Origin: Escherichia phage GA2A
Length of the DNA stretch: 40,470 nt
Sequence record: NC_031943.1
Reading direction: 5' to 3' (one strand)
Shown here: piece by piece, positions 1 to 40,470 of the stretch
Layout of the letters: each line of letters starts with the position of its first letter
Numbering within the stretch: position 1 is the first letter of the stretch
Made by a program: the position numbers and the translations under genes
The notes under the pieces: model-generated
What the model was told of the DNA's origin: nothing
Databases searched by the model: none
Seen by the model: only the letters and a program-made list of their open reading frames with translations

Positions 1-165
1 ATCTCACAGTTCAAGAACCTCAAGTCTCCCCATAGGCCCTCTTTCAGTCCAGACCAAAGGCCCTACCCCAGTCTATCATAAGGTTAGACCGATGGTCAAG
101 ACTTCAGGTCAACGATAGGTTGTGGCTATTGGTGGTGGTGGAGACGATAGGTTGGGACTATTGGT
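1..165. repeat. Left direct terminal repeat
   Basis: 1-165 is identical to 40274-40438 at the other end of the window; T7-like genomes carry a terminal redundancy of about this size. Confidence 0.85.
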
Positions 166-200
166 CTGCCTCTGAGTCTCTATCTGTATAACCATAGGTC

Positions 201-37351: not shown

Positions 37352-37786
37352 ATGCTCGAACTTTTACGCAGGGCGCTCCCGTGGCTCGCAGCAGGACTCC
37401 TGTTCTGTTCCGGCTACTGGGTTGCCGACAAAAAGTGGGAGACCAAAGTAAATGCAGACTACATCACCAAACTGGAAGCTACTGAGAAGCAGCGCCGAGC
37501 AGTACAGTCAGAAGTCAACAAAGTTTCAAAAGACTTCCAGGACAAGCTCTCCGAAGTGGAGGGCTCTACTGATAGGGTTATTGCTGACCTTAACCGCGAT
37601 AACAAGCGGCTGCGCGTCAAAGTCAAAACATCAGGTGTCAGCGAGTCAGATTACCGTCGATGCTTCCCTGATGGAAAAGTCGAACTACACCCAGAGACTG
37701 CTAAAAGTCTTATCCGAATAACTCAGGAGGCAGACCTTAAGGAGCAGGCCTTGCAGGACACCATAAGGAGGTTGCGTGGCGAATAA
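37352..37786 (+). CDS. 18.5: Inner-membrane spanin (Rz-like)
   Basis: [13 protein letters not shown] helix, [24 protein letters not shown] and QDTIRRL match T7 gp18.5; RBS GAGGAGGG; start moved downstream of the hairpin element. Confidence 0.85.
37452..37721 (+). CDS. 18.7: Outer-membrane lipoprotein spanin (Rz1-like), embedded in the Rz gene in another frame
   Basis: [21 protein letters not shown] lipobox with Cys; resembles T7 gp18.7 (WKGALIGLFLICVATISGCAS). Confidence 0.7.
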   Translation: MQTTSPNWKLLRSSAEQYSQKSTKFQKTSRTSSPKWRALLIGLLLTLTAITSGCASKSKHQVSASQITVDASLMEKSNYTQRLLKVLSE

Positions 37787-39545
37787 ACAGACACCTCAGG
37801 AGAGACAGGAGGCGATGACCCAAAGGATGAGGGACGACTTCGTGTTCTTTATCTTCGTTCTCTGGAAAGCGCTGAGCCTTCCGGTGCCTACCCGCTGCCA
37901 GATAGATATGTGTAAGAAGCTGGCTGCTGGGGATAATCGACGCTTCATCCTTCAGGCATTCCGTGGTATTGGCAAGTCGTTTCTGACTTGTGGTTTCGTG
38001 GTCTGGAAGCTATGGAACAACCCAGACTTGAAGTTCATGATTGTGTCGGCCTCAAAGGAGCGAGCCGATGCGAACTCCATCTTCATCAAGCGAATCATAG
38101 ACCTAATGCCTCAGCTTCAGGAACTCAAACCTAAGCAGGGACAGCGAGATGCAGTTATCAGCTTCGACGTTGGACCAGCCAAGCCAGACCACTCACCTTC
38201 GGTTAAGTCAGTTGGTATCACTGGTCAGTTGACTGGTAGTCGTGCTGACGTCCTGATTGCCGATGACGTTGAGGTTCCGAACAACTCAGCGACTCAGGCT
38301 GCACGAGACCGTCTGTCAGAGCTTGTGAAAGAGTTCGACGCTATCCTGAAGCCGGGAGGTACAATCATCTATCTGGGTACTCCTCAGAACGAGATGACCT
38401 TGTATCGTGAGCTGGAAGGCCGTGGATACACTACTACTATCTGGCCAGCTCGTTATCCGCGCGACCGGAAGGACTGGCAGTCTTACGGCGACCGTCTGGC
38501 ACCGATGCTTCAGGCAGAGCTTGAAGGGGACCCTGAGGCCTTCTACTGGCGTCCGACCGATGAAGTTCGATTCGATGATACTGACCTGAAGGAACGTGAG
38601 CTGTCCTATGGTAAAGCTGGCTTCGCTCTACAGTTCATGCTTAACCCGAACCTGAGTGATGCCGAGAAGTACCCTCTGAAGCTCCGTGACCTTATCGTAG
38701 CAGACTTGGACCCAGAGTCCAGCCCAATGGTCTACCAATGGTTGCCTAACCCTCAGAACAAGCGTGAGGACGTTCCTAACGTTGGACTCATGGGTGACTC
38801 ATACCACACGTATCAGACTGTAGGTTCTGCCTTCAGCTCGTACACCCAGAAGATTCTGGTCATTGACCCTAGTGGTCGTGGTAAGGATGAAACTGGCTAT
38901 GCGGTGCTGTACCAGCTCAACGGATACATCTTCGCTATGGAAGTTGGTGGTATGCGTGGTGGCTATGAAGACTCTACGCTTGAAGCACTGGCTAAGATTG
39001 GTCGTAAGTGGAAGGTCAACGAATACGTCATTGAGGGTAACTTCGGTGATGGTATGTACCTTGAGCTATTCAAGCCTGTAGCGTCCCGTATCCATCCTGC
39101 TGCTGTAACTGAAGTGAAGAGTAAGGGCCAGAAAGAACTCCGCATCTGTGACGTTCTGGAGCCCATCATGGGGTCTCACCGACTTATCGTTAACGCTGCT
39201 GCTATCGTCCAAGACTACCAGTCGGCCTCTGATAAGGATGGTGTTCGTAACCCTATCTACTCTCTCTTCTACCAGATGACACGTATCTCTCGTGAACGTG
39301 GAGCCTTGGCACACGATGACCGACTTGATGCGCTGGCTATCGGTGTACAGTTCTTCGTTGAGTCTATGGCTAAGGATGCCAACAAGGGAGAACGTGAAGT
39401 CACTGAGGAGTGGCTGGAGGAACAGATGGAGAACCCACGGAAAGGCTTCGAGTCCATCCACACTGAGTTCTGGGACAATGGGGTCCGGGTGACTCACGAT
39501 ACGGACGACGAGCTGGGACTAGGGGCATACGTTACGTTCCACTAG
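37776..39545 (+). CDS. 19: Terminase large subunit
   Basis: 589 aa versus 586; long identity with T7 gp19 ([106 protein letters not shown]); GTG start after AAGGAGG. Confidence 0.96.
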
Positions 39546-39641
39546 CTGAATGAATAACTATAGGTGAAAGCTGCATGAATACGCGGTTAGTAACCTATAG
39601 TTACTACCAGTCTAACTTACTGTTTTACAAGGAGTTTGGAC

Positions 39642-39664
39642 TTAACTATCACTATAGGGAAGAC
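39642..39664 (+). promoter_or_regulatory. Phage promoter near the right end (phiOR position)
   Basis: TTAACTATCACTATAGGGA. Confidence 0.8.
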
Positions 39665-39842
39665 CCCCGGTTACTTATAGTATTACTGTAGTGAATATAC
39701 ATATGCAGACTTTATGCAAGACCTTAGGAGGCAGACTCCGAGTTCTTACCTAAGGCTTGCACCGATGGAAGGAGGGTGATATTAATCATAATCCCTCCAA
39801 TACGGATAGTCACCGACCATAGATACAGGAGGTATGTAGCAT

Positions 39843-40001
39843 ATGGCAAAGACCAAAGCTGTACTTAAAGCTCTGGCGACCAATCGAGCTACATACAGGT
39901 TTCTTGCTGCTGTTCTACTTGCTGCTGGCGTTACTGCTGGAAGTCAGTGGGTCGGGTGGGTCGAGACTCTCGTATGTACTCTGGTGTCTGAGTGTCCTTA
40001 A
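39843..40001 (+). CDS. gp19.5-like small protein, 52 aa
   Basis: RBS CAGGAGG; RATYRFLAAVLLAAG resembles T7 gp19.5 RVTYRFLVVLCAALG; below track cutoff. Confidence 0.5.
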   Translation: MAKTKAVLKALATNRATYRFLAAVLLAAGVTAGSQWVGWVETLVCTLVSECP

Positions 40002-40067
40002 CGCCATCATGGTAACAATCAACGAAAGGGGCTAAGGATGCAAGAAGAAAACTGGGGCTTTTAAGAC

Positions 40068-40112
40068 CTAAGGTCAGTACGTGGGATAAACCCTCCACTC
40101 TACTGACCTTAG
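40068..40112 (+). other. Perfect 12-bp inverted repeat with 21-nt loop
   Basis: CTAAGGTCAGTA (40068-40079) and TACTGACCTTAG (40101-40112); possible terminator or processing/packaging structure. Confidence 0.4.
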
Positions 40113-40192
40113 CTACTGTAGTCAAGGACTTTAGGTAACACCTTAAGAGAAGCTCACTTAGGGCATCCTACTTATTGGTCTATCCTAGTGTC

Positions 40193-40240
40193 GCCTGACC
40201 TACGGTCCTTGACCTACAGTGGCTGTGGCCTACAGTAGTG
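40193..40240. repeat. Right-end short repeats (GACCTACGG / GACCTACAGT / GGCCTACAGT)
   Basis: Related to the left-end CCTACAGTC tandem repeats; positioned just inside the right terminal repeat. Confidence 0.6.
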
Positions 40241-40273
40241 ACGATGAGTTTTGGACCAAAAGTTTGAGACCAC

Positions 40274-40470
40274 ATCTCACAGTTCAAGAACCTCAAGTCT
40301 CCCCATAGGCCCTCTTTCAGTCCAGACCAAAGGCCCTACCCCAGTCTATCATAAGGTTAGACCGATGGTCAAGACTTCAGGTCAACGATAGGTTGTGGCT
40401 ATTGGTGGTGGTGGAGACGATAGGTTGGGACTATTGGTGGTGGTGGAGACGATAGGTTGGGACTATTGGT
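40274..40470. repeat. Right direct terminal repeat plus one extra partial tandem unit
   Basis: 40274-40438 identical to 1-165; 40439-40470 repeats the preceding unit GGTGGTGGAGACGATAGGTTGGGACTATTGGT. Confidence 0.85.

What the first reader, a model, noticed from the sequence alone, without database searches (positions are those of the whole stretch)
40068..40112. Perfect 12-bp inverted repeat between gene 19.5 and the right-end repeats
CTAAGGTCAGTA and TACTGACCTTAG are separated by 21 nt. There is no U-run after it, so it is not a classical intrinsic terminator. It lies where T7-like genomes have concatemer-processing signals, near the right-end CCTACAGT-type repeats, so a role in DNA packaging or replication pausing is plausible.
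Basis: seen in the sequence. Interest (0 to 1): 0.35.

Follow-up and report, generated by a model that had tools for sequence, protein, structure and literature searches.

The report
Conserved right-end hairpin of T7-like phages
The 12-bp inverted repeat is real and is this K1F-like phage's version of a hairpin-forming element that T7-like phages keep about 150-250 bp before their right terminal repeat, most likely a DNA fold-back used when genome concatemers are processed for packaging.

Summary
CTAAGGTCAGTA (40068-40079) and TACTGACCTTAG (40101-40112) form a perfect 12-bp inverted repeat with a 21-nt spacer. It is the longest perfect one in the genome, against 0.1 expected.

The window is a complete Kayfunavirus (K1F-like) genome. 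The repeat is the first element of the conserved non-coding right-end block and lies 185 bp left of the right terminal repeat (TR). Both arms are identical in every Kayfunavirus right end examined, while the spacer has at least three forms (19, 21 or 23 nt) and the upstream DNA is mosaic.

Other Studiervirinae carry hairpins of unrelated sequence at the same position, just 5' of a shared TAGAGTCAA-type box. T7 and T3 differ by four compensatory pairs, and gh-1 and a relative by three.

Where stems are imperfect, the mismatches are A·C on the coding strand, which read as G·T wobbles on the bottom strand. Annotated RNA hairpins in these genomes show the opposite bias. This argues against an RNA role and fits a bottom-strand DNA fold-back, as in the T7 hairpin-end model of Chung, Nardone and Hinkle (1990). 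I could only recall that paper, not read it.

The function is inferred, not shown. It is a new member of a known kind, of moderate interest.

The parts
40068..40079 (.). Left arm of the inverted repeat (CTAAGGTCAGTA). The invariant core is the 11-mer CTAAGGTCAGT.
   Evidence: I6. It is invariant in all Kayfunavirus right ends retrieved through anchors that do not include the arms. It forms an island of conservation between the variable upstream DNA and the variable spacer.
40080..40100 (.). Spacer or loop of 21 nt, containing a 4-bp upper stem (GTGG 40081-40084 with CCAC 40095-40098).
   Evidence: The spacer has at least three forms in relatives, giving 19, 21 or 23 nt between the 11-bp cores. 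Each form has its own small upper stem: GTGG/CCAC, GTG/CAC or AGTG/CACT, and TAGC/GCTA.
40101..40112 (.). Right arm of the inverted repeat (TACTGACCTTAG).
   Evidence: I6. It is invariant in relatives. In EcoDS1 a C-to-G change next to this arm lengthens the stem to 13 bp.
40113..40129 (+). Conserved box CTACTGTAGTCAAGGAC directly 3' of the hairpin. It is homologous to T7 CTATAGAGTCAAGTCC, T3 CTGTAGAGTCAACC and Berlinvirus TGTAAGAAGTCAAC.
   Evidence: It anchors the positional correspondence of the hairpins in different genera. It is also the left arm of a longer imperfect inverted repeat with 40198-40221 (I4).
40197..40236 (+). Short right-end repeats: GACCTACGGTC, GACCTACAGT and GGCCTACAGT.
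   Evidence: D2, I14, I17. The hairpin arms contain a related core, GACCTAAGGTC.
40257..40273 (+). Box CAAAAGTTTGAGACCAC immediately left of the TR. Its sequence is conserved across genera: T7 ATAAAAATCTGAGTGACT, T3 ACAAAAATCTGAATGGGT, gh-1 AGAAAAATCTGAATGGTCA.
   Evidence: It is a better candidate than the hairpin for a sequence-specific terminase recognition or cleavage signal.
40274..40470 (+). Right copy of the direct terminal repeat.
   Evidence: Window 1-165 equals 40274 onward, with one extra 32-bp unit in the right copy (D1, and 3). It begins with TCTCACAGT, as the T7 TR does.
39642..39663 (+). phiOR-type phage promoter (TTAACTATCACTATAGGGAAGA). Its transcripts would run through gene 19.5 and the hairpin.
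   Evidence: phiOR or a predicted promoter is annotated at the corresponding place in EcoDS1 and CR44b.

Best explanation
The inverted repeat is the Kayfunavirus form of a structure-conserved, sequence-variable hairpin element. Studiervirinae (T7-like) phages place this element at the left edge of the non-coding right-end block, roughly 150-250 bp before the right terminal repeat. It most likely acts as single-stranded DNA rather than as RNA or as a duplex protein-binding site. Proposed mechanism (inferred): during replication or processing of head-to-tail concatemers, a 3' end of bottom-strand sense arises at or just left of the repeat, either from a nick or as a nascent leftward strand. This end folds back on itself through the repeat. 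T7-type DNA polymerase then extends it rightward through the roughly 185-bp spacer and the terminal repeat. That makes the second copy of the repeat, which is needed so that both neighbouring genomes are packaged with a full TR. It also produces a hairpin-capped intermediate. Shown here: the repeat and its stability; its invariance in the genus; the positional conservation of hairpins in other genera, with compensatory changes; and the bottom-strand bias. Inferred: that the hairpin forms in vivo, that it primes synthesis, and that it corresponds to the T7 'hairpin end' of Chung, Nardone and Hinkle (J Mol Biol 216:939, 1990), which I know from memory only.
For: 1. The repeat is real and exceptional.
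2. Both arms are identical in about 30 Kayfunavirus right ends. These were retrieved through terminase homology, through a downstream 18-mer, or from annotated records. They include right ends only 76-80% identical overall.
3. In 212 of 220 database relatives, homology to the window begins at query position 23-26, which is the first base of the hairpin block. Upstream there are at least five different contexts.
4. The spacer between the 11-bp cores is 19, 21 or 23 nt and differs in sequence. A rigid dimer on duplex DNA would not tolerate this; a hairpin loop would.
5. Other genera carry unrelated hairpins at the same position, directly 5' of a homologous (T)AGAGTCAA box: T7, T3, K11 and KP32 have AGGGATTC...ATCCCT; Berlinvirus has AGTGATTAT(20-21 nt)ATAATCACT; Vibrio phage N4 and locus L016 have AATTACTAT(14-15 nt)ATAGTAATT; gh-1-like phages have GCTCAAT...ATTGAGC with an upper stem.
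6. Covariation supports the stems. T7 and T3 differ by 4 double-sided changes and no one-sided change. gh-1 and L014 differ by 3 double-sided changes.
7. The hairpin is more stable on the bottom strand in 17 of 17 variants from five families. The difference is -0.4 to -3.9 kcal/mol with DNA parameters. Stem mismatches are never G·T on the + strand. They are A·C on the + strand, which is G·T on the - strand, in T7 (two sites), T3, K11, gh-1/L014 and the K1F-type spacer.
8. The controls go the other way. Of 27 annotated RNase III sites and terminators in phiYeO3-12 and gh-1, 23 are + strand biased. Only 36-42% of background hairpin windows favour the - strand.
9. With 14-21-nt spacers, cruciform extrusion from duplex DNA is unfavourable (general knowledge of cruciform kinetics). 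The structure is therefore expected to form only in single-stranded DNA.
10. The way the TR is duplicated is described as still not fully understood (PMC3350473).
Against: 1. There is no experimental evidence for this phage.
2. The main stem of the target itself shows no covariation because its arms are invariant. Sequence-specific recognition of the arms therefore cannot be excluded.
3. The bottom-strand bias of the target is small (1.2-1.5 kcal/mol) and does not come from wobble pairs. The informative wobble cases are in other genera and amount to only about four independent sites.
4. Four further hairpin-plus-GTCAA candidates in loci with more divergent terminases showed no such bias, although their correspondence is doubtful.
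5. The distance to the TR is not fixed (145-244 bp).
6. [quoted passage not shown] Whether the T7 palindrome was hit is not stated.
7. The coordinates of the T7 hairpin end could not be checked.
Confidence: 0.5

Rival explanations
1. It is an RNA stem-loop in the phiOR and late transcripts that run through gene 19.5. It would act as a 3' stabiliser against exonucleases, as an RNase III processing site, or as a pause hairpin for the phage RNA polymerase.
For: The element lies downstream of a phiOR-type promoter and of the last ORF, so it is transcribed. The RNA fold is strong, -23.8 kcal/mol with z = -4.38. It has a bipartite stem with an internal loop, loosely like T7 RNase III sites. The gh-1 record annotates a stem-loop in the same intergenic region as a putative RNase III site, R13.
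Against: In the positional counterparts, all wobble-capable mismatches are A·C on the transcript strand, which is disruptive in RNA. None is G·U. Annotated RNase III sites and terminators in phiYeO3-12 and gh-1 show the opposite bias. Even gh-1 'R13' is bottom-strand biased. The stem is only 12 + 4 bp. There is no U-run and no terminator-like site, and no Rfam family matches. No RNase III site is annotated after gene 19.5 in phiYeO3-12, and from memory none was mapped there in T7. The distance from the preceding stop codon varies from 3 to 66 nt.
Confidence: 0.2
2. It is a palindromic duplex binding site for a protein. The protein could be the small terminase gp18 (a pacB-type packaging signal) or another phage or host factor, and the two arms would be half-sites.
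For: The arms are invariant in sequence across the genus. That is what sequence-specific recognition predicts, and it also mimics covariation between genera. The T7 packaging signal is described as PacB (recognised by gp18) plus PacC (PMC9860248). The arms contain a core, GACCTAAGGTC, related to the short right-end repeats (I14).
Against: Half-site spacing varies by 2 and 4 bp within the genus. Genera whose large terminases are 64-73% identical carry completely unrelated arm sequences. By contrast, the box next to the TR (AAAAGTTTGAGACCAC type) is conserved in sequence and is a better terminase-signal candidate. Strand-asymmetric wobble pairs have no meaning for a duplex site.
Confidence: 0.15
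3. It is a replication-fork or recombination feature: a pause site, a cruciform cut by the gene 3 junction-resolving endonuclease, or a mosaic-boundary hotspot. It would have no direct role in TR duplication.
For: It sits exactly at the boundary where homology among relatives begins. Hairpins on a lagging-strand template can stall forks.
Against: A spacer of 19-23 nt makes cruciform extrusion unlikely. Nothing here tests pausing. A mere recombination scar would not be conserved as a structure, with compensatory changes, in five sequence families.
Confidence: 0.1
4. It is a chance inverted repeat with no function.
For: One perfect repeat of 12 bp or more is expected in about one genome in ten.
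Against: Both arms are invariant across the genus next to a variable spacer and variable upstream DNA. Independent hairpins occupy the same position in other genera.
Confidence: 0.03

Closest known systems
T7 right-end imperfect palindrome at nt 39568-39608, and the 'hairpin end' concatemer-processing intermediate of Chung, Nardone and Hinkle 1990 (J Mol Biol 216:939; recalled, not read here)
   Same: It is the first element after gene 19.5. Its centre is 190 bp left of the TR in T7, against 185 bp here. It is followed directly by the homologous box CTATAGAGTCAAG (CTGTAGTCAAGG here). It forms a hairpin on single strands. It is unannotated in the database records.
   Different: The sequence is unrelated. 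The T7 hairpin has 19-nt imperfect arms (15 pairs) and a 3-nt loop, whereas this one has a perfect 12-bp stem, a 21-nt spacer and a 4-bp upper stem. The T7 stem carries A·C mismatches that are G·T on the bottom strand; the target stem is perfect. That the mapped T7 hairpin end coincides with this palindrome is my recollection (about 190 bp left of the repeat) and is not verified.
RNase III processing sites of T7-like phages (R0.3 to R18.5; gh-1 R1 to R13 as annotated)
   Same: Both are intergenic, transcribed, bipartite stem-loops with an internal loop.
   Different: This one is shorter (12 + 4 bp). It lies after the last gene rather than before a gene or promoter. In the positional counterparts the strand bias is opposite to that of annotated RNase III sites.
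Fold-back (snap-back) priming elements of linear DNA replicons, such as the terminal hairpins of parvoviruses and poxviruses and the 3' hairpin of phage N4
   Same: The proposed logic is the same: a 3' end folds back on an inverted repeat and primes copying of its own strand.
   Different: This element is internal (about 185 bp plus the TR from the mature end), not terminal. It would act transiently on a concatemer, and no hairpin is expected in the mature virion DNA.
Class II T7 RNA polymerase pause/termination signal at the concatemer junction (ATCTGTT)
   Same: Both belong to the cis-acting concatemer-junction region and are linked to packaging in T7.
   Different: That signal is a sequence motif without a hairpin. 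In this window an ATCTGT lies at 182-187, just right of the left TR copy, not at the inverted repeat. K11 and BA14 annotate a 'concatemeric junction' at the corresponding place.

Membership tests
Studiervirinae right-end hairpin (T7 39568-39608 type) | An inverted repeat able to form a stable hairpin, lying between the last ORF and the right terminal repeat. | tested here: met
   12-bp perfect stem with z about -5 on both DNA strands. It lies between gene 19.5 (ends 40001) and the TR (starts 40274).
Studiervirinae right-end hairpin (T7 39568-39608 type) | Positional correspondence: directly 5' of the conserved (T)AGAGTCAA / CTAAGGTA.ACC box and roughly 150-250 bp left of the TR. | tested here: met
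   The box CTACTGTAGTCAAGGACTTTAGGTAACACC follows the right arm. Distance to the TR is 185 bp, against T7 190, T3 184, Kvp1 182, gh-1 170 and BA14 168. The box homology was judged by eye from aligned sequences and was not scored statistically.
Studiervirinae right-end hairpin (T7 39568-39608 type) | Selection on pairing (compensatory change) rather than on sequence alone. | tested here: inconclusive
   This is met for the family: T7 against T3 shows 4 double changes and gh-1 against L014 shows 3. For the target genus the arms are invariant, so the main stem gives no test. The only support is that different spacer forms keep a small upper stem, and that one change in EcoDS1 extends the stem.
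Studiervirinae right-end hairpin (T7 39568-39608 type) | A hairpin-capped DNA intermediate is formed at the site in infected cells, and the site contributes to concatemer processing. | not testable with these tools
   This needs analysis of intracellular DNA. The T7 experiment is known to me only from memory (searches failed to retrieve the papers).
Intrinsic (rho-independent or class I T7 RNAP) terminator | A G+C-rich stem-loop followed by a U-run. | tested here: not met
   No T-run follows the stem. No terminator-like site was found in 39500-40470 on either strand.
RNase III processing site of T7-like phages | About two helical turns of dsRNA with an internal loop on the transcript strand, tolerating G·U but not A·C. 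| tested here: inconclusive
   Only 12 + 4 bp. The target has no wobble positions. Its counterparts in other genera carry A·C on the transcript strand, unlike 23 of 27 annotated RNA hairpins. Cleavage itself cannot be tested here.
Described RNA families (Rfam 15) | A match to a covariance model. | tested here: not met
   The only hit was a chance-level miRNA match elsewhere in the region, at E = 9.2.
Class II T7 RNAP pause signal (ATCTGTT) | The conserved heptamer on the non-template strand. | tested here: not met
   It is absent from 40060-40120. ATCTGT is present at 182-187 instead.

The most novel reading that the evidence does not exclude
The right-end hairpin is a general, structure-only cis element of Studiervirinae. 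It works on the bottom DNA strand as a fold-back primer for duplicating the terminal repeat. The consistent G·T-on-bottom-strand signature would then be the first comparative evidence for which strand folds, and it would turn the unresolved question of how T7-like phages regenerate the second repeat into a simple mutational test.
Probability: 0.35. Interest if true: 0.6.

Novelty: new member of a known kind. Interest (0 to 1): 0.4.

Why it matters
T7-like phages package genomes from concatemers that hold one terminal repeat per junction. The repeat must therefore be duplicated, and the literature read here still calls the mechanism incompletely understood (PMC3350473). A hairpin kept at one position across genera, with changing sequence, compensatory substitutions and a bottom-strand signature, is a concrete and cheaply testable candidate for the priming step.

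There are practical consequences too. The element is unannotated in K1F, CR44b, EcoDS1, T7 and T3 records. It sits at the boundary where right-end homology begins. It should be kept intact when engineering or rebooting K1F-like therapeutic phages, or when building packaging-signal plasmids.

Tried and rejected
- Literature: eight full-text searches and several look-ups failed to give any readable description of the T7 hairpin end or of pacB coordinates. The three Chung/Hinkle 1990 papers and the Fujisawa and Morita review are not held, and no supplement is held for the T7 insertion screen.
- Rfam found nothing and the terminator scan found nothing.
- A MAFFT alignment of T7 and T3 with the Kayfunavirus right ends misaligned the hairpins. 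Positional correspondence was therefore argued from the flanking box and from the distance to the TR.
- My first conservation profile mixed orientations, because the arm motif matches both strands. The corrected one selected sequences by the arms themselves, so arm invariance is cited only from anchor-independent retrievals.
- Extending the strand-bias test with a loose 'hairpin + GTCAA' signature to loci with more divergent terminases gave four doubtful candidates with no bias. They are not counted either way.
- My early estimate of the TR start (40266/40267, used to give 177 bp) was wrong. Re-reading the ruler gives 40274/40275, hence 185 bp.
- K11 and KP32 could not be included in the tool-based pair count because their inner stem has a different length.

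Full report
**What the window is.** The first 165 bases of the window recur at 40274-40470, and the right copy has one extra 32-bp unit. The last genes are a large terminase (37776-39545) and a 52-codon gene 19.5 (39843-40001). A phiOR-type phage promoter lies at about 39642-39663. The right end matches more than 200 Kayfunavirus (K1F-like) genomes at 80-95% identity. The window is therefore a complete T7-like genome with direct terminal repeats (TR). The finding lies in the 272-nt non-coding stretch between gene 19.5 and the right TR.

**The observation.** The repeat is exactly as described: CTAAGGTCAGTA at 40068-40079 and TACTGACCTTAG at 40101-40112, perfectly complementary, 21 nt apart (I6).
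- Folding as single-stranded DNA gives -13.1 kcal/mol on the + strand (z = -4.85) and -14.6 on the - strand (z = -5.56). As RNA it gives -23.8 (z = -4.38).
- An extra 4-bp upper stem forms inside the spacer.
- It is the longest perfect inverted repeat with a loop of 3-40 nt in the genome, against 0.1 expected per genome.
- The arm 11-mer occurs nowhere else in the window.
- There is no T-run, no terminator-like site and no Rfam match.

**Conservation within the genus.** I retrieved relatives by routes that do not depend on the arms: terminase homology in IMG/VR, an exact 18-mer downstream of the repeat, annotated reference genomes K1F, CR44b and EcoDS1, and the most divergent database hits.
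- In every case the 11-bp cores CTAAGGTCAGT and ACTGACCTTAG are unchanged. This holds even where the 227-bp right-end segment is only 76-80% identical.
- The twelfth pair (A-T here) is T·T in the K1F-type sequences. EcoDS1 has a C-to-G change that lengthens the stem to 13 bp.
- The spacer has at least three forms: ACGTGGGATAAACCCTCCACTCT, A(C/A)GTGGATAAAGACTCACTCT and TCATAGCTGACGCTACTCT. They put 23, 21 or 19 nt between the cores. Each keeps its own small upper stem.
- Upstream of the left arm there are at least five unrelated contexts, including an extra small ORF in K1F that stops 3 nt before the block.
- In 212 of 220 database relatives the alignment to the window starts at query position 23-26, the first bases of the hairpin block.
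- The left arm is thus an island of invariance between two variable stretches. The right arm is the start of a long conserved block.

**The same position in other genera.** T7 has an imperfect palindrome, AGGGATTCAGCGGTATGAT-TGC-ATCACACCACTTCATCCCT, at 39568-39608. It is the first element after gene 19.5 and its centre lies 190 bp left of the TR. It is followed directly by CTATAGAGTCAAGTCCTAAGGTATACC. The Kayfunavirus hairpin is followed by CTACTGTAGTCAAGGACTTTAGGTAACACC and lies 185 bp left of the TR.

| Group | Hairpin |
|---|---|
| T3 and phiYeO3-12 | T7-type element with a changed inner stem |
| K11 and KP32 | same outer stem AGGGAT/ATCCCT, yet another inner stem |
| Berlinvirus (BA14, Kvp1, Berlin) | AGTGATTAT, 20-21 nt, ATAATCACT, then TGTAAGAAGTCAAC |
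| Vibrio phage N4 (L013) and L016 | (G)AATTACTAT, 14-15 nt, ATAGTAATT(C), then TGTAGTCAAG or TAGAGTCAAC |
| gh-1 and two relatives | GCTCAAT...ATTGAGC with an upper stem, directly after the last ORF, 170 bp from the TR |

- Distances to the TR range from about 145 to 244 bp.
- The tool-based pair counts show four double-sided and no one-sided changes between T7 and T3, and three double-sided changes between gh-1 and L014.
- The box homology was judged by eye. The automatic alignment of such divergent sequences was unreliable.

**Which molecule folds.** All of these elements are transcribed from phiOR, so an RNA role had to be considered.
- I compared the two strands. With DNA parameters the bottom-strand hairpin is the more stable in all 17 variants, by 0.4 to 3.9 kcal/mol.
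- The reason is clear wherever the stems are imperfect. There is no G·T on the + strand. There are A·C mismatches, which read G·T on the bottom strand, in T7 (two), T3, K11, gh-1/L014 and the K1F-type spacer.
- As a control, 23 of 27 annotated RNase III sites and terminators in phiYeO3-12 and gh-1 are more stable on the + strand. Only 36-42% of all stable 50-nt windows in five genomes favour the bottom strand.
- One of the four exceptions among the annotated sites is gh-1 'R13', which also lies in the right-end block.
- This argues against a function in the + sense transcript and for a bottom-strand DNA hairpin.
- The evidence is suggestive rather than strong. It rests on about four independent wobble sites, none of them in the target's perfect stem. 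Four doubtful candidates in loci with more divergent terminases show no bias.

**How it most likely works.** The spacers of 14-23 nt make cruciform extrusion from duplex DNA unlikely, so the hairpin should form when the DNA is single-stranded. A bottom-strand 3' end that folds back at this site would point rightward. Extension by the phage DNA polymerase would copy the spacer and the TR. That would yield a second TR and a hairpin-capped intermediate.
- As far as I recall, this is the model proposed for T7 by Chung, Nardone and Hinkle (1990). They detected a hairpin end to the left of the concatemer junction. My recollection of 'about 190 bp' matches the T7 palindrome.
- I could not read those papers.
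- The accessible literature says only that packaging signals PacB and PacC exist (PMC9860248), that completion of the second repeat is not fully understood (PMC3350473), and that most insertions at the T7 genome ends are tolerated except at positions 142 and 162 (PMC11482910).

**Rivals.**
- A duplex protein site (for example for the small terminase) is compatible with the invariant arms. It fits poorly with the 2-4-bp spacing changes, with unrelated arm sequences in phages that have similar terminases, and with the strand-asymmetric wobbles.
- The box immediately left of the TR (CAAAAGTTTGAGACCAC; T7 ATAAAAATCTGAGTGACT) is conserved in sequence across genera. It is a better candidate for sequence-specific recognition.
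- An RNA role is disfavoured by the strand bias but not excluded for the target itself.
- Fork pausing or recombination roles were not tested.
- Chance is excluded by the conservation.

**Verdict.** The feature is real and conserved. It is best read as the Kayfunavirus member of a known but poorly documented kind of element, the T7-group right-end hairpin. It probably acts as bottom-strand DNA in concatemer processing. The cross-genus structural conservation and the strand signature are, as far as I could find, not described in the accessible literature, and they make the old hairpin-priming idea directly testable.

Noticed in passing
window 113-165 versus 40385-40470: The right copy of the terminal repeat holds three 32-bp units (ACGATAGGTTG.GGCTATTGGTGGTGGTGGAG; the last is cut at the window end). 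The left copy holds two, so the two TR copies differ in length (165 against 197 nt). This is either an assembly artefact or real length heterogeneity in a tandem array inside the TR.
   Followed up: partly
window 39555-39565 and 39593-39603: This is the second-longest perfect inverted repeat in the genome: TAACTATAGGT / ACCTATAGTTA, 11 bp with a 27-nt spacer, against 0.5 expected for 11 bp or more. It lies between the terminase stop codon and the phiOR-type promoter. Both arms look like promoter-core fragments (CTATAGG).
   Followed up: no
window 182-187: ATCTGT lies 17 nt right of the left TR copy. It resembles the class II T7 RNA polymerase pause signal (ATCTGTT) at the T7 concatemer junction. 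K11 and BA14 records annotate a 'concatemeric junction' at the equivalent place. The only essential genome-end insertion positions in T7 (142 and 162) lie near the end of its left TR, where (from memory) this signal sits.
   Followed up: partly
window 40113-40136 and 40198-40221: A second, longer imperfect inverted repeat starts right after the hairpin: GTCAAGGACTTTAGGT / ACCTACGGTCCTTGAC, 14 of 16 complementary. Folding extends it to ACTGTAGTCAAGGAC / GTCCTTGACCTACAGT. It encloses about 60-75 nt of the right-end block. T7 has a weaker counterpart (CCCTATAG...CTATAGGG).
   Followed up: partly
window 40257-40273: The box CAAAAGTTTGAGACCAC immediately left of the TR is conserved in sequence across genera (T7, T3, Kvp1, gh-1, K11). 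This contrasts with the hairpin, whose sequence is not conserved. It is a likely recognition or cleavage signal for forming the left end of the repeat.
   Followed up: partly
window 40029-40062: The window carries about 34 nt between gene 19.5 and the hairpin that nearly all relatives lack. Among the hits listed, only Pectobacterium phage LET1 aligned through it. It contains a 12-nt exact copy (GGCTAAGGATGC) of window 39368-39379, inside the terminase gene.
   Followed up: no
L086 (phage gh-1) 37000-37069: The stem-loop annotated as 'R13, putative RNase III recognition site' in the gh-1 right end is more stable on the bottom strand (-10.9 against -9.3 kcal/mol), unlike nearly all other annotated RNase III sites. 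It may be a DNA-level element rather than an RNA processing site.
   Followed up: partly
L082 (K1F) 552-619, and loci L011, L108, L111: Some Kayfunaviruses have an extra small ORF (MDEESYGSFSEEDYKTEWEYAH in K1F) inserted between gene 19.5 and the hairpin. It ends 3 nt before the hairpin block. It is not annotated in the K1F record.
   Followed up: no
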